A stretch of DNA of 64,000 bases from contig JBHGNT010000014.1 in NCBI GenBank assembly GCA_043228905.1, positions 868,001 to 932,000 on the forward strand, written 5' to 3'. The translations under genes and the position numbers were made by a program. The first letter of the stretch is position 1. Each line of letters starts with the position of its first letter. The stretch is from Azolla caroliniana (lineage: Eukaryota > Plantae > Polypodiophyta). The notes beneath the pieces are model-generated. The model was not told the DNA's origin and made no database searches. It was given only the letters and a program-made list of their open reading frames with translations. Positions 9,996 through 42,642 of the stretch are shown here, in pieces.

Positions 9996-10173
9996 TCGCT
10001 ACAAGAGTTGACCCACCACAAGACAGAGTCTCGACGTAGTCAACAAGATGATGAAATGAGGGTAGCTAAGCCTCTTATTTATAGCGATACCCAAGGCCCC
10101 CATGCAAGTTCACACTTGGCCTAATGGGTTGTAACACGTTTGTGTTCACAAGTGGAAGGATCGCGCATAAATT

Positions 10174-12914: not shown

Positions 12915-14084
12915 TTAACCATATGTACCAATAAGTCCCAAAAGGACTTAACCTGATCCACAACATGTCAAGTGTTTTCATCATTGTATAGGTTAGAACA
13001 CCTAGCTTTCCAAAGAACCCATAAAGCCAAAGAGGAGACAATCTGCCAAACATAACTTCGTGAGAAGAACGTGATTCCCTGCAAGGAACTTGAAGTAGAG
13101 TACACCTGAAAACTTCTCATATGTAAAGTCAAGGAAAAATCATGATAATGATAGATGGCCATTTGTTGATCCAACATTCCCCAGAAGACTACACCCCACG
13201 AGAAAATCCTACATCCTTACAAAAGAAGACACATGCCACAAGTCCATTAATCCCAAAGAAAAAATCGAACATTCTCATTCATATAATTCCAAACAAGATA
13301 ATGCATGTGTTGTGCCTCCTAACCTATCACACACATCCTCCAATATATTAAAGTCACCCGCAATTGCCCAATGGTCAACAATAGGCAATTGTGACAGTAT
13401 GCTCTTCCATAATAGCCTTCAATTTGTTGCATGATTCAGTGCATAAATATTCGACAAACCCGACTTCTTCAAACCTATTTGAAAAATTACATAATGACCT
13501 TGACCATTTGTCAAGACTTTGTAATGTAAGAAGGAAGACCACCAAATATCATTTATTGAAATGAAAAGTCCCCCTTTCAGACTATTATCACCAATTGCAT
13601 GCACACCGAAATGTCTCCACTGGCCTAGCAACAAGTTTCCATATTTCTCAATCCTTTGCTCATTTAAATGATGCTCTTGAATAAGAAGAAAATCAATCCT
13701 ACCTATCAAAGACTTCCTTAACTGACGATAGAAAACACTCCTTACTTTACAACAATGTCTGCTTCCTAAGCCCTGTACATTCCATGAAATAATATTTAAC
13801 TTATCCATCATTCATGTTTTTCCCTCCTACTCTCCTTTCGGCAAGTGCAACATCTCTACCGTTCCTTCCATCCTCTAAGGCCCGTAATTTTCTCTTATTT
13901 GAACAAATCTCTTTCCCAGTCAACTTATGTGAACGCATTGGCATGTACTTACCTACTGTGCTTATCTACTATAGAAACCCTATCAGAAGACCTAACAACT
14001 GAAGTGAAAGTAACTATATTGCCACAATGCATGTCATTATTAGCGGTTGGTCGAGTAGGTGGATGGGCTTCAACATTCGAACGT
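12915..14084 (-). pseudogene. L1-type LINE, 3' part (ORF1 end, endonuclease N-terminus, internal deletion, ORF2 C-terminus)
   Basis: 13419-13811 IISWNVQGLG..LIQEHH..NIYA; 12968-13177 LWVLWKARC. ORF1 continues across the gypsy insertion at 43326. Confidence 0.75.
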
Positions 14085-15679
14085 TGTCGCGGAAATCCGC
14101 AAGTACGTGTAGGATTTGGGCGGGACCACCGGGGTCTTGGACTAGAGAGAGGGATGGGAAGCCAAGACCTAGCTTCACTAGCACCGGTCACACTAGTTGG
14201 GGCACCAACCGGTGCGTTTCCGGGTATGAACCGAGTGATAGAGAGAGATTCATGCGCACATACACTGTTCTGGACTCGGTAATGAAGGGGGGATATGGAC
14301 AGCACGAACAACACAAAATGACATGAAACCAATTAATTGTTTATATATATGTCTTACAAGAACCTGTACATCCGGCAACAAACCTGTGAATTGCCAAACA
14401 GAATACCGTGAGTCTACGGTCAAGCCGCCAGTCGGGGAGCTCACGGACTCCCAAGCGCAAGTGGGGCCTTGCACTGTAATGGACTCTCTACCCAAAGAAA
14501 CCCAAAAGCGGAGACCCCTTACAAGAGACCCCTCCTTCCTTTTATAGCCCAAGGAGGGAGGTGCATTACAATGTGGGAGAATTACTACTCACAAACTAAC
14601 CCTTAGTGCACACTAGCACCTCATAGTCCTCTAGACTTTACCTCTATATACTTTTTCTCATATACTTGTGTGCACATTGTGACTTCACAAATTCCACCCT
14701 TATCACTAGACTTTCACACGGTGGTCGTGATTCTTCACGACATGCACCCCCACCAAACCGCACATCCACCGATATGTGCCAAAATTCGGTGAGGTGGAGA
14801 ATCGCGTCACTAGTTAATGTCACTTTCCAAACCCGACCTTGTCTCGACTGGTGCCCTCCTGCCGAGCCAACACCCAACTTCTCTGTTGGTTTCCGCTGGC
14901 CCGAACTATCGGGTCCTGCCAACCTCGTCCTTGGTCGGGAGCTCGTTTCTCCGTTGCCTTTGTTTCTCCACTTCGAGCTCCTCCAACCTCTCCACCCGAA
15001 CCACCGGCACCACTCGAGAATAGCGCTCGACCACAACCGAGACTCAAAACAGTTTGTGAAAAACCAAAAAACAGAAATGGAGATTCGTACACTTACACAG
15101 AAGAGACGATGCGGGATGTTTACGTGGAAAAACCCTAATAGGGAAAAACCACGGGAGCCCATAAACTCCAACTATCACTATATATGAGAAAAGAGGTACA
15201 ATAGGAGACTCAGAGGCAACGACCTTGAGTTCTGTATCTTCGCCAACCCGCGGCTTCTCTTCTCTCTCGCTCTCTGTACAACGATGGCAACAACAACAAG
15301 AATGATCTAACACTATAAAGTGATTGCCCTAATTCATATTTATACTTATATAATCTTAGGGCTATTTACAAATATAGCCTCAGTGGCTTATCCTAACATA
15401 TTTACAAATATGTCCTTGGATCCGGTTCGCACCGGATCCATCCGGATTCACTCATTCCGGTTTCCGGATCTCTCACCCAGATCCCTCCCGGATCCAGTTT
15501 CTTTATCCGGTTCATCCGATCCGGCTCCTCCAGTTCTCAATTGGATCCGATCTAGAGGGACCAAATTCACAACAAACTCCGCCTTCACTCCGGCATGAGA
15601 TGTCTCATTAGTTCGGTTTGCCTTCAACACGCGTCCAACTTGTCGGTTGTCAGCACCTTGGTCAGCATGTCCGACCCGT

Positions 15680-16602
15680 TGTCGTGAAGAAAACCGTCCC
15701 TAGGCGGAAACCGAGTTTAGCTTGTGTAAACCGGCCCTTACACGCGAGCACACTTTTCGTTGTATAGTAAGTAGGTAGGTACAAGTCGGCTGAGAGGAAA
15801 TCCTAGGCAGCATGCATTCAATAGAGAGCGAATCGAGGTGTATCTCTGTCCGAAGGGACAGAGAATTAATATGATGTAACGGATGATGACGGCCTCCCTC
15901 CTTGGGCTATAAGAGAGAGGGAGAGGAATGGGGGAAGGGGGGTTCGCACGTTAGAGAGGAGGAAGTGCTGCCGGACTGGGACTGAGCCCTTCTCCTCTGC
16001 CACTCTCCATAGCCATTTTTGCGTAGGTTTTCGAGAGGCCGACTCTGCTCCGTGGAACGCCCGTGTGCGTCCAGTAGAGTCTCCATCTCGCTCTTTTGTG
16101 TGTGTGAGTGAACAGGCGTCGGTGTTTGCCTTGCCGGCCTGCTAGTTGTAACCGTCTCGATATATATACATATATTAATATATATACGTGTTGCCGGACT
16201 GGGACTGAGCCCTTCTCCTCTACCACTCTCCATAGCCATTTTTGTGCAGGTTTTCGAGAGGCCGACTCTGCTCCGTGGAACGCCCGTGTGCGTCCGGCAG
16301 AGTCTCCATCTCGCTCCTCTGTGTGTGTGAGTGAACAGGCATCGGTGTTCGCCTTGCCGTCCTGTTAGTTGTAACCGTCTCCATATATATACATATATTA
16401 ATATACATACGTGTTCATATACTCGGGCTTCTAGTCGTCTCGTTTTGCTGTGTTGTTGGACTGTGATTCCTGTGTGCTCCCGTGTCTGTGCGTGTGCAAG
16501 AGTGTCCATTGCCTTTCCGCTCTCCTCCTTCTCAGCTATTTCTCGGTCCAAGACCCCGATGGTCCCGCCTTGTTCCCCACGCACGCCCGTAACAACGCAA
16601 CA
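15680..16602 (+). mobile_element. Solo LTR of the tRNA-Trp gypsy lineage with an internal 223-bp tandem duplication
   Basis: TGTCGTGAAGAA..CAACA; TSD CCGT/CTGT; interrupts Copia RNase H (GACCCGT^TCTCC). Shares TCCAAGACCCCGATGGTCCCGCC with the big LTR. Duplication 15969-16191 / 16192-~16412. Confidence 0.85.
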
Positions 16603-17921
16603 CTGTTCTCCTCCTTATGAACCTTCATCAGCGCAAAGTCTTTGTCCTCTAATCTCTCCTGGATCCAATGGTACCTGTGCCGGATGTGTTTTGTTATGGA
16701 GTGGTACGCCACGTTCTTATGGAGTGGATGGCACTTTGATTATTGTTGTAGAGCCGGTATTCCTCCTGTCGGATCCCTAGCTCTCCAATGAAGTCCTTCA
16801 TCCAGATTATCTCCTTGCTCGCTTCCACGGCTGCCATGTACTCTGCCTCCGTAGTCAATCGTGCAACCTTTTCTGCAATCTCAACTGCCACGATACAACT
16901 CCCCCTGCATAGGTCATAATGTATCCGGATGTGGACCGGCTGGTATCCGCATCAGTCGACATATCCGAATCCGTGAATCCTTCTAAAAGGGGTTTACCGG
17001 AGTCGAACCGGAGGCACATACTCGAGGTGCCTTTGAAATACCACAGTATCCACTTCACCGCGTTCCAGTGCTCTTTACATGGATTGCTCATGAACCGGCT
17101 GACTATTCCGACGGCATATTCGATGTCTAGTCGGGTACACACAATAGCATACATTAGACTTCCGACATCAGAGGCATATGGAATCTTCATCATATCCACC
17201 TTCTCTGCCTTTGTCCTCGTACTTTGCTTTCCAGATAGCTTGCAGTTTGCCAGAAGTGTCAATCCGACCAGTTTCGCCTCTAACATGTTGAACCGTTGAA
17301 GCACCTTTGTCACATACTTCTCCTGTCACAACCACAACAGCTTCTTCGACTAGTCCCGGATGATGTGCATCCCTAAGATCTGTCTCGCCGAACCCAAATC
17401 TTTCCTTGAGAAGGTCTGGTTCAGATCCTTCTTTAGCATTCAGATCTTGATTTGGTCTCGTCCGACGATGAACATGTCATCCACGTACAGAAGGAGTATC
17501 AGGAAATCTTCTCCGTTGAAGTTCTTCAAAAATACGCAGTAATCGGCTTGCATCTTGTGGTACCCTTGGTTGGTCATGAAGGAGTCGAACTTCCGGTACC
17601 GTATAAGCTCCTCTTCTGTCGGCATTCTAGGTGCTCCTTCCGTTTCTTGATGAATCCTTCCGGCTGCTGCATGTAGATCTCTTCTTCGAGGTGGCCATGT
17701 AGGAACACCGTCTGGACTTCTAGTTGCTCTACCTCGAGCTCCATGCTTGCCACTATGCTCAGCACCGTCCGGATGGATGTCATCTTCACTACCGAGGCAA
17801 AGATCTCATCGAAGTCCACACCTTTCTTCTACTGGAAACCCTTCACCACGATTCGAGCTTTATATCTCGGTGGATTTCCTGCATCTCCCGGTTTCAACTT
17901 GTACACCCACTTGTTCCAAAG

Positions 17922-19914
17922 TGATGAGAAATACACGAAATGTCGCTCAGCCACAACCGAGTCTTGAATCACAGAAATGGGAAAGAAGAAGAGTGCACCC
18001 AATTGGAAACAAGACACTAGATGTTTACATGGAAAACCTTGATAGGGAAAAACCACGGGAGCCCACAGACTCCGAACTATCACTCTGAAGAGAAGGTGTA
18101 CAATCAAAGACTCGGAGGCAACGACCTCGATCTCTGTTTCTTCACACAGTGGTGGTTACAAAAGAGTATCACTCTATATCTCTCTCTCTCCCTCTCACTC
18201 TGTACAACAGTTACAACAATATGACAGCAACACAAAAACATGCAATTTTTCTAAAGTGATTGCCCTAAGTCATATTTATAGTTATATGAACTTAGGGTTA
18301 TTTACACATATAGCCTCAATGGGCTTATTCAAGACATATTTACAAATTTGACTTCTCTTCCTATTCTCACCGGGTCCTCTTCATTCATCACTGGATCCCA
18401 TCCGGAGAGACCCATTTCCCAACAATCTCCCCCTTCACTCCAGCATGAGATGTCTTGTAAGTCCAATCCGCTTCCGCATGCGTCCAACTTGTCGGGTGTC
18501 AGCACCTTGCTCAGCATATCTGACCCGTTCTCCTCCGTGTGGATCTTCGTCAACAAGAACTCTCGATCTTCAACTCGCTCCCGGATCTAGTGGTACCTAC
18601 GATGGATGTGCCTCGTTCTGTAATGGTAGGCCGCGTTCTTTGCAAGGTGGATGGCGCTTTGACTATCGCAGTAGAGATGGTATTCCTCCTGTTGGATCCC
18701 TAGCTCTCCGATGAAGTCCTTCATCCATAATATTTCCTTGCCGGCTTCCACGGCTGCCATGTACGCCGCCTCCGTGGTTGACAATGCAACCGTCTTCTGC
18801 AGCCTCGACTGCCACGAAACGGCTCCCCCTGCATAGGTCATGACATATCTGGAAGTTGATCGGCTGGTGTCCACATCAACCGACATGTCCGAATCGGTAA
18901 AGCCTTCCATGAGGGGTTTACCAGAGCCGAATCAAAGGCACATACTCGAAGTGCCCTTCAAGTACTGGAGTATCCATTTTACCACATTCCAATGCTCTTT
19001 TGCGGGGTTGGTCACGAACCAACTCACCACTCCAACTACGTATCCAATATCCGGTCGAGTCCACACCATTGCGTACATCAAGCTCCCGACCACATAGGCA
19101 TATGGAATCTTCAACATATCCGCCTTCTCCGCCTTTGTCTTCAAGCTTTGCTTTCCGGATAATCTGCAGTTTGTCGGGAGTGTCGATCCGACCGGTTTTG
19201 CTTCTGACATGTTAAACCGTTGAAGCACCTTTGTCATGTACTTTTCCTGTGAGAGACAAAATTGCTTCTTCGACCGGTCCCAGATGATGTGCATCCCCAG
19301 TATCTGTCTTGTACGACCCAAGTCTTTCATTGAGAAGGTTCGGTTAAGGGCCTTCTTCAGTTTCTGTATATTGACTTGGTCTCGCTCGACGATCAACATG
19401 TCGTCCACGTACAGGAGCAATATCAGAAAATCTCCTCCGTCAAATTTCTTCACAAACATGCAGTGATTGGCTTGCATCTTGTGGTACCCTTGATTGGTCA
19501 TGAAGGAGTCAAACTTCCGGTACCATTGTTGGGCAGCTTGCTTCAGTCCGTATAAGCTCTTCTTCAGCCGGCACACCAGGTGCTCCTTCCCTTTCTTCTC
19601 AAATCCTTCCAGTTGATGCATGTAGATCTCTTCTTCGAAGTCTCCATGTAGGAATGTCGTCTTGACGTCCAGTTGCTCTACCTCGAGGTCCATGCTAGCC
19701 GCTATGCCCAATACCATCCGGATGGATGTCATCTTTACTACCGGAGCAAAGATCTCATCGAAGTCCACTCCTTTCTTCTGCGGGAAGCCCTTCACCACGA
19801 TTAGGGCCTTATACCTTGGTGGATTTCCGGCGTCTCCCGGTTTCAGCTTGTACACCCACTTGTTTCGGAGTGCCCTCTTTCCTTTCGGCAACTCCACCAA
19901 TTCGTATGTGTGGT
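17922..19914 (-). mobile_element. Tork-like Copia element B, 3' part (LTR 17922-18424, PPT, RNase H, RT); continues at 25438
   Basis: LTR TGATGAG..CCCAACA; PPT 18425-18441; RT ORF 18932-~19914 (QLDVKTTFLHG, LLLYVDDM); RNase H 18587-18910. No partner LTR in the window. Confidence 0.8.
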
Positions 19915-21142
19915 CCCGATGAACAACGCTCGGCCACAACCGAGCTTAGAATCAAAACACAGAAAAACGGGGAATGAATGCACGACACAATGGAGAGAAG
20001 AGAACACAGGATGTTAACGTGGAAAACCCAAACTAGGGAAAAAAAGTCACGGCAGCCCACAAACTGCAAACTATCACTATGTTAGAATGTACAAATGGTA
20101 AAGCACCAAAGCAACGACCTCGAGCTTTCTATCTTCGCCACAGGCGGCGGTTACAACAAAGGCAACAACCTCTTCCTCTCTCTCACTCTCTCTGTACACA
20201 GTTGCGCGCTCTAATCTTGCGCCAACAAGAATGACAACAACTCTACCCTAAGTTTGCCCTAAGTCATATTTATACTAATATGACTTTTCGGCTATTCACA
20301 AATATAGCCCCGATGGACTCTCAGAAACATATTTACGAATATGTCCCTTCATCCGGTGAGCACTCCTCACCGGGCCTGCATCATCCGGCTCTTGCCGGGT
20401 ACTCCCCATCCTGTTCTCACTGGGTCTTCTGTAGCCGGGTACTCCTCATCCAGTTCTCATGGGTCTTCCGTAGCCAGGTAGTACTCCTCATCCGGTTCTC
20501 ATCGGGTCTTCCGTAGCCGGGTACTCCTCATCCAGTTCTCACCGGGTCTTCCATAGCCGGGTAGTTCTCACTTCCCATCCGGAGGGACCTGTTTCCTAAC
20601 AAACTCCCCCATCACTCCAGCATGGGATGTCTTTCTAGTCCGATCCGCTTCCGGCATGCATCCAGCTTGTCGCGTATTAGTACTTTGGTCAACATATCTG
20701 ACCCGTTCTCGACCGTGTGGATCTTTGTTAGCACGAACTCCTGGTCATCTACTCTTTCCCGGATCCAGTGATACCTTCACTGGATATGCTTCGTCCGGGA
20801 ATGGTAGGCCGCATTCTTAGCAAGGTGGATGGCACTTTGACTGTCGCAATAGAGCCGGTATTCATCTTGTCGGATATCGAGCTCTCCGATAAAGTCCTTC
20901 ATCCATAATATTTCCTTGCCGGCTTCCACAACCGCCATGTACTCCGCCTCCGTGGTTGACAGCGCAACCGTCTTCTGCAGCCTCGACTACCACGAAACAG
21001 CTCCCCCTGCATATGTCATTACATACCCGGATGTAGACCGGCTTGTATCCACATCAGCCGACATATCCGAATCAGTAAAACCGTCAAGTTGAGGTTTACC
21101 GGAGCCGAATCGGAGACACATGTTCGAAGTGCCCTTCAAGTA

Positions 21143-23797
21143 CTAAAGTATCCATTTGACCGCGTTCCAGTGCTCCTTGTCGGGATTGCTCATAAACCGG
21201 TTCACCACTCTGACTGCGTATCCTATATCCGGTCGAGTACACACCATTGCGTACATTAAGCTCCTGACGGCAGAGGCATATGGAACCTTCATCATATCAG
21301 CCTTCTCTGCTTTCGTTTTCGGGCTTTGCTTACCAGATAACCTGCAGTTTGCCGGAAGTGTCGATCCGACCGGTTTCGCATCTAACATGTTGAACCGTTG
21401 AAGCACCTTTGTCACGTATTTCTCCTGTGATAGCCACAATTGCTTCGTTGGCCGGTTCCGAATGATATGCATCCCCAGCATCTGTCTTGCCAGACCCAAG
21501 TCTTTCATCGTGAAGGTTCGGTTGAGAGCCTTCTTCAGCATCCGTATTTTGGCTTGGTCCCAACCGACGATCAACATCTCATCCACGTACAGAAGTAGTA
21601 TTAGGAAGTCACCTCCTTCGAACTTCTTCACAAACACGCAGTGATCGGCCTGCGTCTTGTGGTACCCTTGATCGGTCATGAAGGAGTCGAACTTCCGGTA
21701 CCATTGCCGAGGGGCCTGCTTCAATCTGTAGAGGCTCTTCTTCAACCGGAAAACCAGGTGCTCCTTCCCCTTCTCCACGAATCCTTCCGGGTGCTGCATG
21801 TAGATCTCCTCTTCGAGGTCACCATGAAGGAATGTCGTCTTCACATCCAGCTGCTCTACCTCGAGGTCCATGCTTGCCGCTATGCTCAGCACTGTCCGGA
21901 TGGAGGTCATCTTTACTACCGGGTCAAATATCTCGTCGAAGTTCACACCCTTCTTCTGCTGGAACCCCTTCACCACGATCATGGCTTTGTATCTCGGGGG
22001 GTTGCCGGCATCTCCCGGTTTCAACTTGTACACCCACTTGTTTCGGAGTGCCCGCTTTCCTTTCTTCAACTCCACCAATTCGTACGTATGGTTCTCATGC
22101 AAGGAATTCATCTCATCCTGCATGGCACTTAACCATTTGTGGTTGTGGCTGTCACTTTTAGCTTCCTCGAAGCTTTCTGGCTCCCCCTCATCAGTCAGCA
22201 GCACATGCTCTGCATCCGGAAATCTCTGGGGGGGCCTTCTCTCTCTGAGAGGATATCTCCGTCTTTGGGCTTCGGTAACCAGGCCCTCTATTCGCTCTTC
22301 ATCTGAATCCGATTCGGGGTCTTGGCCGGTTCCAGTTTCAGCTTCCTCTACTTCTTCTTCTGCCGGTTCGGTATCCTCACCGTAACCGGCTGGTTCCTCG
22401 AGTGCTAACCGGTCTCTTTCCGGTTGGGTTTGCTCATCGTAGAATTGATCCTTACCGGTCGACTCGGAGTTCATTATCTTCTTCTCCGAATCCCAATCGG
22501 CGAGCGTCTTGTCCTCCATGAAGATAATATCTCGACTCCGGAATACCTTCTTGTCGACCAGGTCCCACACTCGGTAGCCGAACTCATCATCGTCGTAACC
22601 GAGGAATATGCATGGCCGGGTCTTTGGATCTAACTTTCCTCTCCGGTCCTTAGCTACATGCACGTACGCGAGACAGCCGAATACCTTCAGATGCCGGTAG
22701 GACACTTCCTTACCGGTCCAGACTCTCTGTGGCGTGTCTCCGTCCAAGGGTACTGAGGGTGATCTGTTTATCACATATGTCGCCGTCGACAATGCCTCAA
22801 CCCAAAACTTCTTGGGTAGTTTTGCATGCGCCAGCATACTCCGGACCCTCTCCATTATGGTCTGGTTCATCCTCTCGGCCAGCCCGTTTAGTTCCGGCGT
22901 CTTCGGCACGGTAAATTCGAGCCGGACTCCCTTCGAGCGACAGTACTCCTCGAACTGCCCCCCGTATTCACCTCCGTTATCTGCTCGAACCGCCTTCAGC
23001 TTCCGGCCGGTTTCTCTTTCCACTCTCGTGTGGAGCTCTTTGAAGACGGATAGCACCTGATCCTTCATCTTCAACAGTGTGGCCCAAAGCTTCCGGTTGT
23101 GGTCATCTATGAACGTCACGAAGTACTGCAATCCTGCATGTGACTTCGTGTCCACTTGACACACATCAATATGCACCAACTCCAATGGTGCATTACGTCT
23201 CATCGGTGGTCTTGGTGGGAAGGAGGTCCGGTTTTGCTTACTGGCTAGACAATCAGCGCACTTCTCCAAGTGCATGTTCTTCACTGGAATGAGGTTGTCG
23301 TCTGCAAGCCTCTTCATCCCCTTCTCGCTCATGTGACACAGCCTTTTGTGCCACAGCTCACCGACAGTGTCGAATGCCACGTTCACTTCCTCCGGACATA
23401 ACTTGGCATTCATCAGGTACAGCGTGTTTACCTTCCAGGCCCGAGCCACAATCAGGCTCCCTTTGTTGAACTTCATAACACCGTTCCGGATGCTACCCAT
23501 GTAGCCTTCATCATCTAGCTGACCGGCTGATATCAGGTTCAGACGAACCTCCGGAACGTGTCGGACATCCTTCAGCAGCATCTTGCATCCGGTTGGTGTT
23601 GTCAACCACACGTCTCCTATGCCGACAATTCGACATGTACCTTCATTCCCCATCCGGACACAGCCGTGATCACCGGTTGAGTAGGATGAGAAGCATTTCT
23701 GGTCCGGGGTAAGGTGGAACGACGCTCCAAAGTCGACCACCCAGGTCATCTCGTCGCCAGCAAGGTTTATCTCACTCTCCTCGATGATGAGCATCAA
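21143..23797 (-). pseudogene. Copia C pol (protease, integrase, RT), 884-aa open stretch with a premature stop before RNase H
   Basis: WVVDFGASFH, LWHKRLCH, TFIDD, RADNGGEY, NGLAERMN, QLDVKTTFLHG, LYVDEM. TAG at 21143; RNase H remnant 20620-21140. Confidence 0.9.
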
Positions 23798-23938
23798 CTC
23801 TTCTTTGCTTGCCGTGATTGCTGTCGTTCCCTTCCGGTCCGTCCCCCTCCAGTCTTTACCGTTCCGGTCCGGTGTCCACTTCGAATTGGTACCGTCGATT
23901 TCCTTGTCTTTTCGGAAATGCCGACAAATCTTCTGGAA

Positions 23939-24658
23939 CTATCCCAGCTTGTCGAAATAGAAGCAAGTAGACCTCCCCCTAGACTTTGACCGTGTCCCCA
24001 ACTTTTCCCGGTTCTGGGTGCTACGATTCCTTTGTCTTCTGCATTCCGATTCGGTAAGGAGCGCTTTGGAGTCGGAGCTCGTATCCTTATCTTTCCGACG
24101 CGCCTCCTCATCTAGCAAGCTCGACTTCACTCTTGCTCGGGATAACCGTTTCCCTTCCGGCCCGGCGTTACCCAAAGTGACAACCAACATCTCCCAGCTA
24201 TCCGAGAGGGAACTGAGCAGGAGTAGCGCTAGTACCTCATCGGCGAGAGGTACTTCCAATGATGTTGCCTGGTGGATCAGCCCCTGGAAGGCATTCATGT
24301 GCTCCGCCATGCTGGAGCCATCTTGGTACCGGAGTCTTACTAGCTTCCGGAATACCGAAACCTGATTAACAACATTTTTGTTTTGAAACATAATGTCGAT
24401 CTTCTCCCAGAGCTCATGAGCCTTGCTCTCTTCATTGAAGTTGTTGTATAGACTCATGTTGATGAAACACCGTATGTACGCCGTTGTCTTCATGTGCATC
24501 ACCTCCCATATCGTGGCGTCGATTTTGTCTGGTCTCTTGTCCCCGAACTGAACCGGCAACCAAAGATCTTTAACCACGAGCATGTCCCTCATCTTCGACT
24601 TCCACACCGAATAGTTGGAGCCGGTGAGCTTGAACATGCCTCCCAACGAATCCTCCAT
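23939..24658 (-). pseudogene. Copia C gag (disrupted at the zinc knuckle)
   Basis: MEDSLGGMFKLTGSNYSVWK..LALLLLSSLSDSWE; knuckle degraded to CFYFDKLG*. Confidence 0.85.
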
Positions 24659-25184
24659 TTTCTGTGTCGTTTCGCTCTGATACCACTTTGACAGGAACAC
24701 ACACTCTCGATGAACAACGCTCGGCCACAACTGAGCTTAGAATCAAAACACAGAAAAACGGGGAATGAATGCACGACACAATGGAGAGAAGAGAACACAG
24801 GATGTTAACGTGGAAAACCCAAACTAGGGAAAAAAAACCACGGCAGCCCACAAACTGCAAACTATCACTATGTTAGAATGTACAAATGGTAAAGCACCGA
24901 AGCAACGACCTCGAGCTTTCTATCTTCGCCACATGCAGCAATTACAACAGAGGCAACAACCTCTTCCTCTCTCTCACTCTCTCTGTACACAGTTGTGCGT
25001 TCTAATCTTGTGCCAACAAGAATGACAACAACGCTAACCTAAGTTTGCCCTAAGTCATATTTATACTAATATGACTTTTCGGCTATTTACAAATATAGCC
25101 CCAATGGACTCTCAGAAACATATTTACGAATATGTCCCTTCATCCGGTGAGCATTCCTCACCGGGCCTGCATCATCCGGCTCTT

Positions 25185-25393
25185 GCCGGGTACTCCTCAT
25201 CCGGTTCTCACCGGGTCTTCCGTAGTCGGGTACTCCTCATCCGGTTCTCACCGGGTCTTCCATAGCCAAGTAGTACTCCTCATCCGGTTCTCACCGAGTC
25301 TTCCGTTGCCGGGTACTCCTCATCCGGTTCTCACCGGGTCTTCCGTAGCCGGGTACTCCTCATCCGGTTCTCACCGGGTCTTCTGTAGCCGGG
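25185..25393. repeat. 40-bp tandem repeat (5 copies) in U3 of the Copia C 5' LTR; 4 copies at ~20394-20561 in the 3' LTR
   Basis: Unit GCCGGGTACTCCTCATCCGGTTCTCACCGGGTCTTCCGTA; TACTCC anchors at 25191, 25231, 25274, 25314 and 25354. Confidence 0.9.
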
Positions 25394-28300
25394 TGGGTAG
25401 TTCTCACTTCCCATCCGGAGGGACCTGTTTCCTAACATGTTGGGCAGCTTGCTTCAGTCCGTATAAGCTCTTCTTCAGCCGGCACACCAGGTGCTCCTTC
25501 CCTTTCTTCTCAAATCCTTCCGGTTTATGCATGTAGATCTCTTCTTCGAGGTCTCCATGTAGGAATGTCGTCTTGACGTTCAGTTGCTCTACCTCGAGGT
25601 CCATGCTAGCCGCTATGCCCAATACCATCCGAATGGATGTCATCTTTACTACCGGAGCAAAGATCTCAACGAAGTCCACTCCTTTCTTCTGCGGGAAGCC
25701 CTTCACCACGATTAGGGCCTTATACCTTGGTGGATTTCCGGCGTCTCCCGGTTTCACCTTGTACACCCACTTGTTTCGGAGTGCCCTCTTTCCTTTTAGC
25801 AACTCCACCAATTCGTATGTGTGGTTCTCATGCAGGGAATCCATCTCATCTTGCATGGCACTCAACCACTTGCGGTTGTGGGTGTCTCCCCTGCTTTCCG
25901 GCTCCCCCTCATTGGTTAGCAACACATGCTCTGCATCCGGAAATCTTAGGGGAGCTCTTCTCTCCCGGAGAGGATATCTCCGTCCTTGGTTTTTGACTGT
26001 CGGTTCCTCCGTTTGTTCCGAATTCGAATCCGAATCCGATTCGGGATCTTGTCCGGTACCGGTGTCTTCTTCTTCTTCGCTTGGTTCGGTTTCTTGTCCG
26101 TATCCAGCCGGTTTGTCGAGTGTCATCCGGTTACCGGCTAACATCCGGTTTTCAACCGGGTATATATCCTTTCATCCTCAAGCCGGTTTTCAATGGATGA
26201 TCCGGAGTTCATTACCTTCTTCTCCCACTCCCAGTCGGCAATGGTCCTATCTTCCATGAAGACTATGTCTCGACTCCAGAACACCTTTCTGTCGACCAGA
26301 TCCCACACCTGGTAACCGAACTCATCATCGTCCTATCCAAGGAATATGCATGGTTGGGACTTCGGATCCAGCTTTGCTCTCTTGTCCTTCACCACATGCA
26401 CGTATGCGAGACACCCGAACACCTTCAGATGCCGGTAAGATACATCTTTTGCCGGTCCATACCTTCTAAGGTGAGTCTCCTCCCAAGGGTATTGAGGATG
26501 ATCTGTTTATCACATAGGTAGACGTCATCAGCGCCTAAGCTCAAAACGTCTTGGGTAACTTGGCATGTGCGAGCATGCTCCGGACTCTCTCCATTATGGT
26601 CTGATTCATCCTTTCGGCCAACCCATTTAGTTCCAGCGTCTTTGGCACAGTGAATTCGAGCCGGATTCCCTTCGACCGGCAATACTCCTCGAACCGCCCC
26701 CGGTATTCTCCTCCGTTATCTGCTCAAATCGCTTTCAGCTTCCGGCATGTTTCTCTTTCCACTCTCGCGGGGAGCTCCTTGAAGACGGATAGCACTTGAT
26801 CCTTCGTCTTCAACGGTGAGACCCACAGCTTCCGGTTGTGGTCTTCTATGAACGTCACAAAGTACTGTGCTCCAGCATGTGACTTCGTGTCGACTTAACC
26901 CACATCGGTATGCACCAGCTCCAGTGGTGCATTCCGTCTCACCAATGGCCTTGATCGGAAGGAAGTTCAATTTTTCTTGCCAGCCAAGCAATTAGTGCAC
27001 TTCTCAAGTTGCACGTCCTTCACCGGAATGAGGTCGTCTTCGCAAGCCTCTTCATCCCCTTCTCACTCATGTGACACAGTCTTTTGTGCCACAGCTCACC
27101 GGCAATGTCGGATGCTACATTCACTTCTTCCCGGCATATCCGGGCATTCATCAACTACAGTGTGTTGACATTTCGGGCTCAAGCCACTATTAAGCTCCCT
27201 TTGTAGAACTTCATGACATCGTTCCGGATGCTACATGTGTAGACTTCATCATCTAGCCGACCGGTTGATATCATGTTCAGTCAAACCTCCAGAACGTGTC
27301 GGACATCCTTCAGCAGCAACTTGCATCCGGTTGATGTCGTCAACAACACATCTCCTATGCCGATAATTCCCCATCCAGACACAGTCGTGCTCACCGGTTG
27401 TGTAGGATGAGAAGCATTTCCGGTCCGGGGTAAGGTAGAACAACGCTCTGGAATCAACAACCCACATTGTCTCATCAACGGCAAGGTTCAACTCACTCTC
27501 CTCGGTGATGAGCATTAGTTCTTCTTCACTTGCCGTGATCGTAGTCGTTCCCTTCCGGTCCGGGCCTCACCAATCCGAACCGTTTTGGTCCAGTGACTTC
27601 TTCGAATCGGTACTGTCGGTTTCCTTGTCTTTCCAGAAATGCCGATAGTTCTTGTGGAAGTGCCCCGGCTTGCCGCAATAGAAGCAAGTGAGCCTCCCCC
27701 TTGACGTTGATCGTGTCCCGACTTTTCCCGGTTATGGGGACTCCGATTCCTTTGTCTTCCGCATTCCGATTCGGTAAGGAGGGCTTTGGCGTCGGAGATC
27801 ACCTCCTTGTCTTTCCGACGCACCTCTTCATCTAGCAAGCTCGACTTGACTCTTGCTAGGGATAGTTGTTTTCCTTCTAGCCCGGCATTGTCCAACGTGA
27901 CAACTAACGTCTCCCAGCTATCCAGGAGGGAACCAAGCAAGAGTAGACCAAGTACCTCATCAGCGAGAGGTACTTCCAACGAGATTTCTTGGTGTATCAA
28001 CCCCTGGAAGGCATTCATGTGCTCCGCCATACTGGAGCCATCTTGGTATCGGAGCCTCACTAGCTTCCAAAATACCGAAACCCGATTAACGGAATTCTTG
28101 TTCTAAAACATGATGCCGATCTTCTCCCAGAGTTCATGAGCCTTGCTCTCTTCATTGAAGTTGTTGTACAAGCTTATGTTGATGAAGCACCGGATGTATG
28201 TTGTCGTCTTCAGGTGCATCACCTCCCACACTGTGGCATCGATCTTATTCAGTCTCTTGTCCCCGAACTGAACCGGCAACCAAAGATCTTTAACCACTAG

Positions 28301-28817
28301 CATGTCCCTCATCTTCGACTTCCACACTGAGTAGATGGAGCCGGTGAGCTTGAACATGCCGCCAAATGACTCTTCCATTTGTTGTGTTGCTCGCTCTAAT
28401 ACCAGTTTGAATGGAATAGTGCTCGGCCACAACCGAGACTGAAAACAATTTGTGAAAGACCAAAAAACAGAAATGGAGATTCGTACACTTACACAGAAGA
28501 GACGACACGAGATTCTTACATGGAAAATCCTAATAGGGAAAAACCATGGGAGCCCACGGACTTCAACTATCACTATATATGAGAAAAGAGGTACAACAGG
28601 AGACTCAAAGGCAACGACCTCGAGCTCTATATCTTCGCCAACCAGCGGCTTCTCTTCTCTCTCGCTCTCTGTACAACGATGGCAACAACAAGAATGATCT
28701 ACCACTATAAAGTGATTGCCTAAGTCATATTTATACTTATATGATCTTAGGGCTATTTACAAATATAGCCTCAGTGGGCTTATCCTAACATATTTACAAA
28801 TATGTCCTTGGATCCGG

Positions 28818-29626
28818 TGTCCCGGAATTCCGCGCGTGCGTATCGAATAGGACAGGACCACGGGGGTCTTGGATAAGAGAGTGAGAGAAGGGAAAGAAGC
28901 TTCGGAGTTTAACCGAGAAGGGAAAGATTAAGGTTAGAGCGGTTAAGATTGGAGAGATTAAGATTAGAGGCATAACAAGACAAGATTCATCGAATGATTA
29001 TATTACGAAAACACCACATGAATTACAACCATGGCCGTGTAGGCCGAATGTAAACCCTCTAGATGAAACCCTAACCGGATAGGGGAAAAGAAGAAGAAGA
29101 AGAAGAAGAAGAAGAAGACGAATGAAACCCCTAAAATGAGATCCTAAAATCCAAAATTTTGAAACCCTAATGGCAACCCAAAGAAACCCAAATAGTGGAA
29201 GCCCCTCAAAAATGGCCCCTCACTCCCTTTTATAGTAGTAACGGGTTAGGAACATTACATAAAGATGAGTTCAAATCCCCCTTCTTTCAATGAGGGAATA
29301 TTTAGCCTTGATCTTAGGAGGAGAGATTGTTGGGGTCTTAACTCCCTCTCCTCTCACATTCACACACACCCACGCCCTCTACTTATTACACCGTACTTCC
29401 ATACACTCCCCTTTAGTCTACATGTGCATGAGCCCCTAAGTACACATTACCTTTATATTTCAGAAACTTTGTGGTGCCCTATTCGCACCTTATATTTTTA
29501 CCCTTCCCTTTACATTTTGTTACCTTTCCTATTTTACAAATTCCCTAAGTGCATGTGCAATGTTGCACATCCCCATTTTATTCATCCCACTTGGTTTTCT
29601 CACCATGGCCGAAAATCCTCACGACA
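28818..29626 (-). mobile_element. Solo LTR of the tRNA-Trp gypsy lineage inserted in the Copia A 5' LTR
   Basis: TGTCCCGG..TCACGACA; TSD CCGG/CCAG. The empty site GGATCCGGTTCGCACC is visible in the sister LTR at ~15418. Shares the GGACCA..GGGGTCTTGGA motif. Confidence 0.85.
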
Positions 29627-29767
29627 CCAGTTCGCACCGGATTCACTCGTTCCGGTTTGCGGATCTGACCCAGATCCCTCCCGGATCTGGTTTCTTTATC
29701 CGGTTCGTCCGATCCGGCTCCTCCGGTTCTCAACTAGATCCCATCTGGAGGGGCCAAATTCACAACA

Positions 29768-30444
29768 TATATGTCGTCGTAGAACCTGTACATCCGGTAA
29801 CAAACCGGTCAATTGCCAAAGAGAATATCGTGAATCTACGATCAAGCTGCCAATCGGCGAGCTCACGGATTCCCAAGCACGAGTAGGACCTTGCACCATA
29901 ACAGACTCTCTACCCAAGACGGAGCTCCCTAAAGAAACCCAAAAGTGGAGACCCCCTTACAAGAGACCCCTCCCTCGTTTTATAGCCCAAGGAGGGAGGT
30001 GCATTACAATGTGGGAGAATTACTTATCACAAACTAACCCTTAGTGCACACTAGCACCACATAGTCCTCTAGGCGTTACCTCTATATACTTTTTCTCATA
30101 TATGTGTGCACATGGTGACTTCGCAGTTTCCGCCCTTATCACTAGATTTTCACACAGTGGTCGTGATTCTTCACAACATGCACCCCCATCAAACCGCACA
30201 TCCGCCGATATGTGCCAAATTTTGTGAGGTGGAGAATCGCGTCATTAGTTAATACCACTTTCTGAACCTGGCCTTGTCTCGATCGGTGTCCTCCTGCCGT
30301 TGGCATGAACTGTCGGTTTTCGCTGGCCTGAACTATCGAGTCTTGCCGACCTCCTCCTCGGTCGGGAGTTCATTTCTCCGTTGCCCTTGTTTCTCCACTT
30401 CGAGCTCCTCCAACCTCTCCACCTGAACCACCGGCGCCACCCGA
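29768..30444. repeat. Direct duplicate of 14346-15017 (partial gypsy LTR to 30178 + PPT region)
   Basis: Collinear from TATATGTC.. to ..CCACC(C/T)CGA; abuts the Copia A ends on both sides. Confidence 0.85.
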
Positions 30445-31563
30445 TCCACCAAATCCTCCACACGCCCTCCGACTCACATCCCCATCCGATCCTTCCATGC
30501 GGCTTCTCGAACCACAATCTCCATTCGATTCGCCAAATTCTGCGTTCACACTTGATCTCCCTTTCGGCTTGAACAAAACTCCCGATCATCACTTTCGGAC
30601 CGACCAGTCTCCCTTCACTCTTCATGCCAGTTTCGAACCGACCGAGCACTCGTCCCGGCACCATCGTGTGTCGTCCTTTCTTTCTTGACCGCTTCCTATC
30701 GGCGTCGACCTTCTTTGAACACGTGCTCCTCTTTCAGCCCTTACGTGGCCACACTACACGTCTCTCGTTTCGTCCTATCACGCCGACATTCGTGCCAGTG
30801 CTACCCGCCTTGGTGTCCTTAATCGGCTCTTGTTACCGCTTCGTCTTGAGGCACACCCTCTCGGCCCACCAAGCCCGCTTAGACCCAAAACATCCTCCGG
30901 GATGCCCTATTCTCTCTTCTTGGTGCGTGATCAACCGTTCTCTACGCACCTCCTCCGTTTGCCCAAACACAACCCTCCGCTCGTGTTGTCCTTCATCCCC
31001 TACTTGCCTCTCGAAGGCCTGACCCAACCGTTATCGGTAATCACTCGTCGCGGCTCCTCCGAATACATGCTTGTCCCTTGGCCCTCAAGCGACCGTATTG
31101 TATGTGTTGTATTCCTTCCTTCACTCGTCGTAGAGCCGGTCCACGCTTCGGCCTCCCTCCCCTTCGTTGTCGTAGTCCTTTCATAACCCGATTGCCCCTC
31201 TTGGTCCCATTCGTCCATCATTCCGCACCGAATACCTCGTACGACATCCTCGTCTGCTTCGACTATCGACCACTCGCCGCCACCTTCCGTCTCCTCGGAC
31301 TTACGGTGGTCCGCAACCGCCGAAGTTTGAAGGTTAGGAGTGGAGAGTCCTTCCGTGCGCACCATCCTTTTCCAGTTGTTGCAACGCAACCACTTCAACG
31401 CATAGTCGGGTCGGTTCAACCATTCTTTCATTCAGCATCGACCGGCCCACTCCTGACCGGGTTCATGCTCAGTCGATCTGCCTCGATCGCCTCTTCGCCC
31501 CAGGTTGATCGTTCTTGCCTACATTGGGCCGGTCCTTCCTAAGCGACCCCTGCCTAGGTCGCG

Positions 31564-34500
31564 CTCCACCTAAATTAGAGGCTCAACCGGATTGTCCACC
31601 GACTAGACCAATTTCCGACTCCTCTTCCCAGGCCTCACACCTTGCCTTCACCTTCTCACAGATTACCTCCCGTCCACGTCTGTCTGCCTCGTTCGGGCCC
31701 GCCTCACCAACACCTCCCATCTCCTTGGTCTTATGTTGGCTCTTGGGCCCGATCGTTGATGTCTCCTGTGGCGGTATGGAGGAACCGCTCTGTCCATCCG
31801 CACTCTCGTCGCCATCTTCCGTCTCCTTGGTCTTATGTTCGCTCTCGGGCATAGTTGCCAAGGACTATAGAACCGGTGTGGGGAGACTCGTTCCTCCCCG
31901 TCCTTCTTCCCCGGGGCCTTCGAGCCCGCGTGTTCTTCTCCTCATTTCTTCCGGACATATCTGGATGCCATGGCTTGCCCACTCCGACCCACGATTAGGC
32001 CAGCCTCTATGACCTATCCGAATCGAAACCACCACAGTCCCGATTAGCGGTCCTTTCGCCTTCCATCCGGGTCGTCTCTTGGATACTTCCCATTTTTTGT
32101 GTGTTGCTACAACTTCGTCCTCGGCCCCTTTGTTGGCCAGCATTCCTCCGTACGTGCCCATATGGACCTTTTGCTTCTCGCCGCTAGCGCCCATCTCTCC
32201 GGTCTCACGTTGGCACACGGGCACAACCGCCGAAGTCTCCGACACCGGTGCAGAGAAAGCCTCAACTCCATCACTCGTCGACAACTTGTTCATAACCACC
32301 TCTGCCTCGACGTCGCCGCCCGTGGCCATCCCTTCCATGCAAGCTCTGACTGTGCTTGCCTCACTCTCGCTCGACATTTCGGACAATCGTGCCTGGACAC
32401 ACTCGTGCTCTCCCAAATCAGTGATCGTCGCCTCACCACCTGAATTAGAGGCTCAACTGGATCGTCCACCGATTGGACCGATTTCTTACTCCTCTTCCCG
32501 GGCCTCACGCCTTGCCTTCACCTTCTCGGAGCTTACCTCCCGTCCACATCCGTCGGCCTCGTTCTGGGCCGCCTCACCAACACCTCCCATCTCCTTGGTC
32601 TTACGTTAGCTCTTGGGCCCGATCGTTGATGTCTCCTGTCACGGTGTGGAGGAACCGCTCTGTCCATCCGCACTCTCGTCCCCTTCTTCCGTCTCCTTGG
32701 TCTTATGTTCTCTCTCGGGCATAGTTGCCAAAGACTCTAGAACCGGTGTGGGGAGACTTGTTCCCCCTTGTCCTTCTTCCCCGTGGCCTTCGAGCCCGCA
32801 CGTTCTTCTCCTCGTTTCTTCCAGACTTATCCGGATGCCACGGCTCGCCCACTCCGACCCACGATTAGGCCGGCCTCGATGACCTGTCCGGATCGAAACC
32901 ACCATAGTCCCAATTAGCGGTCCTTTCGCCTTCCATCCGAGTCGTCTCCTGGATACTTCCCATTTTTTGTGTGTTGCTACAGCTTCGTCCTCGGCCCCTT
33001 TGATGGCCAGCATTCCTCCGTACGCGCCCATATGGACCTTTTGCTTCTCACCGCTAGCGCCCATCTCTTCGGTCTCACGTTGGCACACAGGCACAACCGT
33101 CGAAGTCTCCGACACCGGTGCGGAGAAAGCCTCAACTCTATCACTTGCTGACAACTTGTTCATAACTTCCGTGCAAGCTCTGATTGTGTCTGCCTCGCTC
33201 TCACTCGACATTCCGAACAATCGTGTCTGGACACACTCGTGCTCTCCCAAATCAGTGATCGTCGCCTCACCACCTGAATTAGAGGCTCAACCGGATCATC
33301 CGCCGACTGGGCCGATTTCCGACTCCTCTTCCCGGGCCTCACGCCTTGCCTTCACCTTCTCGGAGCTTACCTCCCGTCCACGTCCGTCAGCCTCATTCTG
33401 GGCCGCCTCACCAACACCTCCCATCTCCTTGGTCTTACGTTAGCTCTTGGGCCCGATCGTTGATGTCTCCTGTCACGGTGTGGAGGAACCGCTCCGTCCA
33501 TCCGCACTCTCGTCCCCTTCTTCCGTCTCCTTGGTCTTATGTTCTCTCTCGGGCATAGTTGCCAAAGACTCTAGAACCGGTGTGGGGAGACTTGTTCCCC
33601 CTTGTCCTTCTTCCCCGTGGCCTTCGAGCCCGCACGTTCTTCTCCTCGTTTCTTCCAGACTTATCCGGATGCCACGGCTCGCCCACTCCGACCCACGATT
33701 AGGCCGGCCTCGATGACCTGTCCGGATCGAAACCACCATAGTCCCAATTAGCGGTCCTTTCGCCTTCCATCCGAGTCGTCTCCTGGATACTTCCCATTTT
33801 TTGTGTGTTGCTACAACTTCGTCCTCGGCCCCTTTGATGGCCAGCATTCCTCCGTACGCGCCCATATGGACCTTTTGCTTCTCACCGCTAGCGCCCATCT
33901 CTTCGGTCTCACGTTGCCAAACGGGCACAACCGTCGAAGTCTCCGACACCGGTGCGGAGAAAGCCTCAACTCTATCACTTGCTGACAACTTGTTCATAAC
34001 TTCCGTGCAAGCTCTGATTGTGTCTGCCTCGCTCTCACTCGACATTCCGAACAATCGTGTCTGGACACACTCGTGCTCTCCCAAATCAGTGATCGTCGCC
34101 TCACCACCTAAATTAGAGGCTCAACCGGATCATCCGCCGACTGGGCCGATTTCCGACTCCTCTTCCCGGGCCTCACGCCTTGCCTTCACCTTCTCGGAGC
34201 TTACCTCCCGTCCACGTCCGTCAGCCTCATTCTGGGCCGCCTCACCAACACCTCCCATCTCCTTGGTCTTACGTTAGCTCTTGGGCCCGATCGTTGATGT
34301 CTCCTGTCACGGTGTGGAGGAACCGCTCTGTCCATCCGCACTCTCGTCCCCTTCTTCCGTCTCCTTGGTCTTATGTTCTCTCTCGGGCATAGTTGCCAAA
34401 GACTCTAGAACCGGTGTGGGGAGACTTGTTCCCCCTTGTCCTTCTTCCCCGTGGCCTTCGAGCCCGCACGTTCTTCTCCTCGTTTCTTCCAGACTTATCC

Positions 34501-40500: not shown

Positions 40501-41648
40501 CCCCTTTGATGGCCAGCATTCCTCCGTACGCGCCCATATGGACCTTTTGCTTCTCACCGCTAGCGCCCATCTCTTCGGTCTCACGTTGGCACACGGGCAC
40601 AACCGTCGAAGTCTCCGACACCGGTGCGGAGAAAGCCTCAACTCCATCACTTGCTGACAACTTGTTCATAACTTCCGTGCAAGCTCTGATTGTGTCTGCC
40701 TCGCTCTCACTCGACATTCCGAACAATCGTGTCTGGACACACTCGTGCTCTCCCAAATCAGTGATCGTCGCCTCACCACCTGAATTAGAGGCTCAACCGG
40801 ATCATCCGCCAACTGGGCCGATTTCCGACTCCTCTTCCCGGGCCTCACGCCTTGCCTTCACCTTCTCGAAGCTTACCTCCCATCCACGTCCGTCAGCCTC
40901 ATTCTGGGCCGCCTCACCAACACCTCCCATCTCCTTGGTCTTACGTTAGCTCTTGGGCCCGATCGTTGATGTCTCCTGTCACGGTGTGGAGGAACCGCTT
41001 TGTCCATCCACACTCTCGTCCCCTTCTTCCGTCTCCTTGGTCTTATGTTCTCTCTCGGGCATAGTTGCCAAAGACTCTAGAACCGGTGTTGGGAGACTCG
41101 TTCCTCCCCATCCTTCTTCCCCGTGGCCTTCGAGCCTGCGCGTTCTTCTCCTCATTTCTTCCGGACTTATCCGGATGCCACGGCTCACCCACTCCGACCC
41201 ACAATTAGGCCGGCCTCGATGACCTGTCCGGCTCGAAACCACCACAACCCCGATTAGCGGTCCTTTCGCCTTCCATGCGGATCGTCTCCCGGATACTTCC
41301 CATTTTTTGTGTGTTGCTACAGCTTCTTCCTCGGCCCCTTTGATGGCCAGCATTCCTCCGTACGCGCCCATATGGACCTTTCACTTCTCGCCGCTAGCAC
41401 CCATCTCTCCGGTCTCACGTTGGCACACAGGCACAACCGCCGAAGTCTCCGGCACCGGTGTGGAGAATTCCTCAACTCTATCACTCGTCGACAACTTGTT
41501 CATAGCCACCTCTTCCTCGACGTCGCCGCCTGTGGCCATCCCTTCCGTGCAACCTCTGACTGTGCTTGCCTCGCTCTCGCTCAACATTCCGGACAATCTT
41601 GTCCAGACACACTCGTGCTCTCCCAAATCAGTGATCGTCGCCTCACCA
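31564..41648. repeat. Tandem array of 12 units (10 x 834 bp, flanked by two diverged 870-bp units)
   Basis: GEHECV frame starts at 32416, 33250, 34084, 34918, 35752, 36586, 37420, 38254, 39088, 39922, 40756 and 41626. Outer units carry an extra 36 bp. Confidence 0.97.
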
Positions 41649-42624: not shown

Positions 42625-42642
42625 TTCACATCGGGTTCACCA
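42625..42642 (-). promoter_or_regulatory. Primer binding site complementary to tRNA-Trp
   Basis: TGGTGAACCCGATGTGAA lies 4 nt after the 5' LTR. The plant tRNA-Trp 3' end as recalled (..UUCACGUCGGGUUCACCA) matches with one C>T change. Confidence 0.75.

What the first reader, a model, noticed from the sequence alone, without database searches (positions are those of the whole stretch)
14346..30444. Second independent case: Copia A has the same polarity with a ~675-bp target duplication
Seen: 14346-15017 reappears at 29768-30444, directly abutting Copia A. Again the U3 end is exact (..CACAACA|29768) and the U5 end is clipped (TGAATG missing at 15018). The outer gypsy TSD and the continuous L1 ORF1 show a single host locus, so the apparent third gypsy LTR fits a duplication. 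Two of two assessable insertions of this Tork-like lineage share the geometry. Inference: the family may routinely integrate asymmetrically and so duplicate host DNA; I do not know this as a described regular property of a plant Copia family. Caveat: clustered differences (GTCTTACAAG vs GTCGTCGTAG) could mean an ectopic repair template.
Basis: partly seen in the sequence, partly recalled or inferred. Interest (0 to 1): 0.82.

Follow-up and report, generated by a model that had tools for sequence, protein, structure and literature searches.

The report
One-ended Copia insertions duplicating host DNA
Two plant jumping genes at this locus each have one perfect end, one trimmed end and several hundred bases of duplicated host DNA, likely because the enzyme inserted only one end and host repair finished the job, an accident known from retroviruses that appears to be occasional rather than routine in this lineage.

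Summary
The geometry is real. 14346-15017 recurs at 29768-30444, against Copia A's complete U3 end; A's U5 end lacks 6 nt. Nested Copia C matches this (388-bp repeat, U5 clipped 16-17 nt). Short-read contigs bridge A's U3 junction. The third gypsy LTR piece groups with the local LTR (7 shared methylation-type changes against 1 and 1), so a local duplication fits better than an ectopic template. Against this, the repeat is slightly more diverged than A's LTRs (10.9% vs 7.1%, p=0.03).

This is the product described for one-ended HIV/ASLV integration; HERV-K has similar long duplications.

The 'routine family property' claim is not supported. A third insertion here (B) has an intact U5 end. Among related LTRs in metagenome contigs, 44-45 of 48 independent U5 ends are intact, 3 solo LTRs show 5-bp duplications, and 0 of 25 show long repeats. 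That survey covers sister subfamilies, not A or C, and some contigs are chimeric.

The scan noted similar single events in other genomes. My searches found no plant description. Verdict: a well-preserved natural example of a known accident.

The parts
12920..14084 (-). Decayed L1 host, end of ORF1 and start of ORF2; last 4 bases are the gypsy TSD ACGT
   Evidence: translation and junction print
14085..14742 (-). Outer gypsy 3' LTR (L1 in my three-way test)
14346..15017 (.). Left copy of duplication A (397 bp of gypsy LTR plus 275 bp of gypsy interior; 672 bp)
15018..15574 (-). Copia A 3' LTR, U5 tip lacking TGAATG
   Evidence: a contig in X2 fits this junction (record 15)
15680..16602 (.). Solo gypsy-type LTR inside A, 4-bp TSD CCGT/CTGT
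16603..17921 (-). Decayed RT-RNase H remnant of Copia A (continues 15575-15679)
   Evidence: tblastn and identity profile
17922..18424 (-). Copia B 3' LTR with intact U5 TG; no partner LTR in the window
19527..19914 (.). Left copy of duplication C (388 bp of B's RT)
19915..20601 (-). Copia C 3' LTR, U5 tip lacking 16-17 nt
20602..24688 (-). Copia C interior; gag ORF and 931-aa open pol stretch (integrase, RT)
24689..25437 (-). Copia C 5' LTR, complete U3 end
25438..25825 (.). Right copy of duplication C
25826..28407 (-). Copia interior (RT to gag and PBS); B-derived at its left end, the switch to A not located
28408..29767 (-). Copia A 5' LTR, complete at both ends, interrupted by a solo gypsy LTR at 28818-29626 (TSD CCGG/CCAG)
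29768..30444 (.). Right copy of duplication A (677 bp), abutting A's U3 end; GTC-repeat scar at 29776-29780
30445..42646 (-). Outer gypsy interior with an 834-bp tandem array (about 31566-41648)
42647..43325 (-). Outer gypsy 5' LTR (L2), followed by TSD ATGT
43326..44300 (-). Decayed L1 ORF1 with CCHC knuckle, upstream part of the host element

Best explanation
Copia A and Copia C each have a complete U3 end, a trimmed U5 end and a long flanking host repeat, likely because integrase joined only the U3 end and host repair finished the U5 end, as an occasional accident rather than a family rule. Shown: the junction geometry in both elements, one host locus, the local origin of the repeat, and mostly intact U5 ends in related elements. 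Inferred from the retroviral model: (1) integrase joined the U3 CA-3' end to the host at 14346 (A) or 19527 (C); (2) the free U5 3' end was trimmed by 6 or 16-17 nt; (3) it primed host-polymerase synthesis on DNA 672 or 388 bp beyond the first join; (4) recombination closed the intermediate and left that stretch on both sides. Speculative: U5 may be the weaker end because this lineage has a 3-nt LTR-PBS spacer against a 2-nt PPT-LTR spacer.
For: Both elements have exact U3 joins and clipped U5 joins with 0-1 nt homology. A random later deletion would end this close to the LTR tip with chance about 0.0004 (A) and 0.003 (C). At 71 methylable sites the duplicate shares 7 C>T/G>A states with the local LTR against 1 and 1 for the other pairings (binomial p=0.008; star-tree expectation 1.2). 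Duplicate C's divergence (9/383) fits C's LTR divergence (18/478 in the non-tandem part, p=0.33), and both copies of it carry a letter at 25693 that under 1.1% of the laid contig depth can hold. The A junction is present in short-read contigs. The same anatomy is described for HIV/ASLV: one normal end, one often truncated end, and host duplications of hundreds or thousands of bp (PMC5041404). Sporadic nature: 45 of 48 independent non-PBS U5 ends have TG at a family distance. Short type 20 of 22 against chance 0.22; long type 24 of 26 by a stricter motif against chance 0.14. Both clipped window ends fail the same tests. 5-bp TSDs at L009, L053 and, with one mismatch, L018.
Against: Duplicate A is more diverged than A's LTR pair: 72/660 vs 38/538, p=0.027; p=0.065 at non-methylable sites; p=0.041 without the first 14 bases. 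Over the same 392 columns it is as far from the local LTR (38) as the two gypsy LTRs are from each other (36), although it should be younger. Junction homology is minimal, whereas the retroviral model says a short homology is usual. A is a composite whose B-to-A switch was not located, so its two LTRs may not come from one insertion. At a 4-6% rate, two events among three insertions has probability 0.005-0.01; it needs selection of this window from many, or a higher local or subfamily rate. 16 of 19 two-ended metagenome loci show no TSD; chimeric assembly explains this only in part.
Confidence: 0.68

Rival explanations
1. The third LTR piece is older than Copia A. A tandem three-LTR gypsy already existed; A entered the middle LTR, and the DNA between 15017 and that site was lost, either when a free U5 end was joined about 12 kb away (one-ended integration with deletion) or by a later deletion or recombination between two A copies.
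For: Duplicate A is more diverged than A's LTRs (p=0.027-0.065) and as diverged as the gypsy LTR pair. Internal rearrangement did happen here, since B lacks its 5' LTR. Pseudo-TSD models of this sort are discussed for HERV-K (PMC5488345).
Against: It needs an extra tandem element and an endpoint only 275 bp into a 12-kb interior. A later deletion must stop 6 nt inside the LTR tip without microhomology. The three divergences are only borderline heterogeneous (p=0.053; 0.15 at non-methylable sites). It does not explain C, whose repeat is as young as its LTRs.
Confidence: 0.17
2. The A and C subfamilies in this genome often integrate one-endedly with fixed polarity (U3 joined, U5 failing), so long host duplication is a regular product.
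For: Two events of different age (LTR divergence 7.1% and 3.8%) and different subfamily share the polarity. 2 of 3 here against 2-3 of 48 gives Fisher p=0.014-0.023 (a post hoc comparison). The 3-nt against 2-nt spacer asymmetry is seen in window and metagenome copies. The survey did not sample A or C themselves.
Against: 44-45 of 48 related U5 ends are intact; for 3 of 48 clipped the 95% upper bound is 17%. Canonical 5-bp TSDs exist in the lineage. No long flanking repeat was found in 25 loci. B is intact at U5. The window was picked out of 264 noted in this genome.
Confidence: 0.09
3. The 29768-30444 piece was copied from another genomic gypsy copy (ectopic template) during repair.
For: The duplicate has 24 private substitutions against 12 for the local LTR (p=0.065), including the cluster at 29776-29780.
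Against: It shares derived states with the local LTR. It starts at the base that follows the U3 end and runs straight on into the local interior at 30445. Contig depth over this gypsy is low, and the other listed contigs match the locus's own 5' LTR (29 differences, 1 gap). The cluster reads as a GTC slip.
Confidence: 0.05
4. The structure is an assembly artefact.
For: The region is dense in repeats, and no single contig spans it.
Against: The copies differ by 11% and 2.3%. Contigs from up to three samples bridge 29767|29768, and one fits the 15018 junction.
Confidence: 0.01

Closest known systems
Aberrant one-ended integration of HIV-1 and ASLV DNA (Varadarajan et al. 2016, PMC5041404; passages, section 10 and the Discussion read)
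   Same: One normal end, the other often truncated; host duplication of hundreds to thousands of bp in place of the 5-bp repeat; explained by host-polymerase extension of the free 3' end followed by recombination.
   Different: There it was induced by drugs, integrase mutants or a mutated end (0 of 99 and 0 of 85 in wild-type controls). Here it is a natural, old plant Copia pair. Junction homology is usual there and only 0-1 nt here.
HERV-K (HML-2) insertions with long target site duplications (Kahyo et al. 2017, PMC5488345; parts 2 and 3 of 4 read)
   Same: Natural germ-line LTR insertions flanked by long repeats: 8 sites over 10 bp, up to 450 bp, among 451 putative TSDs; two checked against pre-insertion alleles; pseudo-TSD alternatives discussed.
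   Different: A retrovirus, not a Copia. End polarity was not analysed in the parts read. Empty alleles were available there and not here.
Canonical Tork-lineage Ty1/copia (Tnt1, Tto1) and plant LTR retrotransposons in general (Neumann et al. 2019, PMC6317226; passages read)
   Same: Copia domain order; C's RT-RNase H region is 62-65% identical to proteins named TNT 1-94-like; TG...CA LTRs; relatives with 5-bp TSDs.
   Different: A and C lack the 4-6-bp TSD and the U5 terminus. That survey kept only elements with a TSD and TG/CA ends, so it could not record such copies.

Membership tests
Aberrant one-ended LTR integration (HIV/ASLV type) | One end precise, ending in CA at the host junction | tested here: met
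   U3 ends at 29767 and 25437 are complete
Aberrant one-ended LTR integration (HIV/ASLV type) | Other end truncated | tested here: met
   6 nt (A) and 16-17 nt (C) missing at U5
Aberrant one-ended LTR integration (HIV/ASLV type) | Long direct duplication of adjacent host DNA that starts at the precise join | tested here: met
   672/677 bp and 388 bp; local origin supported
Aberrant one-ended LTR integration (HIV/ASLV type) | Duplication as old as the insertion | tested here: inconclusive
   Met for C (p=0.33); for A the repeat is somewhat more diverged than the LTR pair (p=0.027-0.065)
Aberrant one-ended LTR integration (HIV/ASLV type) | Short homology at the aberrant junction (usual, not obligatory) | tested here: inconclusive
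   0-1 nt exact; imperfect TCTC-ATG likeness at C
Aberrant one-ended LTR integration (HIV/ASLV type) | Pre-insertion allele holds one copy of the duplicated DNA | not testable with these tools
   No genome held; no empty allele seen among the listed contigs
Tork-lineage Ty1/copia | Copia domain order and Tnt1-like RT/RNase H | tested here: met
   Pfam order gag, protease-like, integrase, RVT_2; 62-65% identity to hits named TNT 1-94
Tork-lineage Ty1/copia | Placement in the Tork clade of a reference tree | not tested
   No reference set was treed; Tnt1 is listed under Tork in PMC6317226
   44-45 of 48 independent U5 ends intact in related subfamilies; A and C subfamilies themselves not sampled
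   0 of 25 long repeats; 3 of 19 with a 5-bp TSD, 16 without, in partly chimeric contigs

The most novel reading that the evidence does not exclude
The A and C subfamilies of this Tork-like lineage fail to join their U5 end in a large share of insertions (20% or more), perhaps because of the 3-nt U5 overhang. That would make them a polarised, regular source of 0.4-0.7-kb host duplications that TSD-based annotation misses.
Probability: 0.1. Interest if true: 0.7.

Novelty: new member of a known kind. Interest (0 to 1): 0.36.

Why it matters
It suggests that the host-completed, one-ended integration route, worked out with drugs and mutants in retroviruses, also occurs naturally in plant Copia elements and is inherited. 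Annotation tools that require a 4-6-bp TSD and TG/CA ends discard such copies, and the duplicated host LTR can be misread as a three-LTR element or as a second insertion. The natural rate and end bias of this route in plants can be counted in any good assembly. As an occasional accident it is a modest finding; a subfamily-wide bias would be a new source of local duplication.

Tried and rejected
A genome-wide survey was not possible: no assembly is held. Laying contigs on A's U5 end to count intact and clipped ends was inconclusive: 129 and 112 contigs were laid, the rows shown were mostly other subfamilies, and 43 loose-end rows were not shown. The LTR motif scan of viral contigs found nothing. 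No metagenome locus held the outer gypsy family, so no outgroup could polarise the three-way test; polarity rests on CG/CHG context alone. The B-to-A switch in 25826-28407 was not visible in an identity profile against C; the gag rows of that tblastn used an out-of-frame query and were ignored. Single-strand deamination of a displaced flap was considered for the duplicate's excess changes and dropped, because its private transitions are 5 C>T and 9 G>A. Rows dropped from the 60 loci before the U5 count: 1 without upstream DNA, 7 PBS-bearing 5' LTRs, 4 repeats of the same left junction. The short/long type labels and the allowed distances were set by eye. The loose long-type test has a 0.59 chance rate, so the stricter test is the one to trust. 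Literature searches turned up no plant Copia case; the library lacks most subscription papers. PMC7497039, PMC9312197 and PMC12786077 (passages) held nothing on long duplications. No supplements were read; the junction table of PMC5041404 could bear on end polarity and homology lengths.
Full report
Anatomy. Self-comparison and reading of the sequence give a nest of elements, all on the minus strand where strand can be told. A decayed L1 is split by a gypsy element with LTRs at 14085-14742 and 42647-43325 and a 4-bp TSD (ACGT/ATGT). The L1 ORF1 frame is in register across that TSD, so there is one host locus. Inside the gypsy lies Copia A (LTRs 15018-15574 and 28408-29767). A holds two solo gypsy LTRs and Copia B (3' LTR 17922-18424, no 5' LTR). 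B in turn holds Copia C (LTRs 19915-20601 and 24689-25437). C's RT-RNase H region is 62-65% identical to proteins named TNT 1-94-like, which fits the Tork label but was not tested on a tree. The PBS reads as tRNA-Met (recalled). Earlier, unchecked notes on this genome call it a fern.

The observation. 14346-15017 recurs at 29768-30444. The right copy starts at the base after A's complete U3 end and runs on into the gypsy interior at 30445. The left copy ends against A's 3' LTR, which lacks TGAATG. C shows the same: 19527-19914 = 25438-25825, a complete U3 end, and 16-17 nt missing at U5. Junction homology is 0-1 nt in both. Short-read contigs from four runs (at most three samples, one labelled as a second organism) cross A's U3 junction with 0-7 differences. 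One contig fits A's clipped junction by position and difference count; its flank letters were not shown. An assembly artefact is therefore unlikely.

Is the third LTR piece a local duplicate? In 392 ungapped columns the private differences are 12 (local 3' LTR), 22 (5' LTR) and 24 (duplicate). At the 71 sites in CG or CHG context, 7 show the decayed base in both the local LTR and the duplicate, against 1 and 1 for the other pairs. A star tree predicts 1.2 (p=0.0002; binomial p=0.008). The duplicate thus shares history with the local LTR. This polarity rests on context alone, with no outgroup. Contig depth over this gypsy is far lower than over the Copia interior, and the only other long contigs listed at 29781-30033 match the locus's own 5' LTR (29 differences and 1 gap, as computed).

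Timing. For C the repeat (9/383) and the LTRs (18/478 outside the tandem part) agree (p=0.33). For A the repeat is more diverged than the LTR pair: 72/660 against 38/538 (p=0.027), 31/516 against 14/427 at non-methylable sites (p=0.065). It is not younger-looking than the gypsy LTR pair (54/653). The three values are borderline heterogeneous (p=0.053; 0.15 without methylable sites). This is the main evidence against duplication at insertion for A, and it keeps the older-tandem rival alive. Gene conversion between LTRs could lower A's value (recalled, not tested).

Mechanism. The anatomy is that of aberrant retroviral integration. PMC5041404 (passages, section 10 and Discussion read) reports one normal end, a second end often truncated, and host duplications of hundreds or thousands of bp. 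It explains these by the free 3' end priming host synthesis nearby, then recombination, which gives a duplication on one side of the first join or a deletion on the other. Here the U3 end would be the integrase-joined end and U5 the repaired one. A later random deletion would end within 6 or 17 nt of the tip with chance 0.0004 or 0.003. Natural long TSDs are known for HERV-K: 8 over 10 bp among 451, up to 450 bp (PMC5488345).

Is it a family habit? No genome is held, so I scanned metagenome contigs for a conserved LTR motif that both clipped window LTRs still carry and obtained 60 loci. Their best matches to the window's LTRs are about 68-88% identical, so they are sister subfamilies from a host I did not identify. 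After dropping 1 locus without upstream DNA, 7 PBS-bearing 5' LTRs and 4 repeated junctions, 45 of 48 U5 ends have TG at a family distance. The short type gives 20 of 22 (chance 0.22); the long type gives 24 of 26 by a stricter motif (chance 0.14). The two clipped window ends fail these tests; A5, B3 and C5 pass. One of the three failures (L018) is full length with a near-matching TSD; L037 and L041 may be clipped. Of 19 two-ended loci without PBS or PPT, 3 have a 5-bp TSD (L009, L053, L018) and 16 have none. Same-left, different-right pairs (L003/L056, L045/L046) show chimeric assembly, so this tally is weak both ways. None of 25 loci had a long repeat between its flanks. Clips that remove the motif would be missed. 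Routine asymmetry is therefore not a property of the wider lineage, while A and C themselves remain unsampled. At a 4-6% rate, two of three in a window has probability 0.005-0.01; as a rough illustration that assumes three scorable insertions per window, this is one to three windows among 264.

Novelty. Ten literature searches found no plant Copia report. Structural surveys filter on TSD and TG/CA ends (PMC6317226, passages), so such copies would be missed. The scan itself noted two comparable single events in other genomes (unchecked notes). Verdict: a real and well-preserved pair of likely one-ended integrations, a new member of a known kind, interest 0.36.

Noticed in passing
window 14081-14084/43326-43329, 15676-15679/16603-16606, 28814-28817/29627-29630: All three gypsy-type insertions have 4-bp TSDs of the form NCGN (ACGT, CCGT, CCGG), each with one copy showing CpG decay. 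PMC6317226 gives the NCGN preference for the Phygy lineage only.
   Followed up: partly
window 17922-28407: Copia B has an intact 3' LTR but no 5' LTR; its interior runs into A's PBS and 5' LTR, which suggests recombination or a template switch between B and A.
   Followed up: partly
window 24686-24688, 28405-28407, 15575-15576, 18425-18426, 20602-20603; L002, L005, L029, L033, L036, L040, L055: The lineage has a 3-nt spacer between LTR and PBS and a 2-nt spacer between PPT and LTR, so the two cDNA ends would carry different overhangs.
   Followed up: partly
window 31566-41648: About 12 copies of an 834-bp unit inside the gypsy, much alike in the middle, with open frames of 186-215 codons on both strands.
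   Followed up: no
window 8332-12915: A chromodomain-bearing gypsy 3' end (Chromo, SH3_Tf2-1) abuts a Copia gag and 5' LTR of another lineage with no LTR-PBS spacer; each seems to lack its other half.
   Followed up: no
window 15965-16415: 228-bp internal tandem duplication (94% alike) in the solo LTR at 15680-16602.
   Followed up: no
window 55349-62591: A TIR1/AFB-like F-box gene (+ strand) and a PPR gene (- strand) lie to the right of the repeat nest.
   Followed up: no
L037, L041: Two related LTRs whose U5 ends lack the expected TG and may be clipped.
   Followed up: partly
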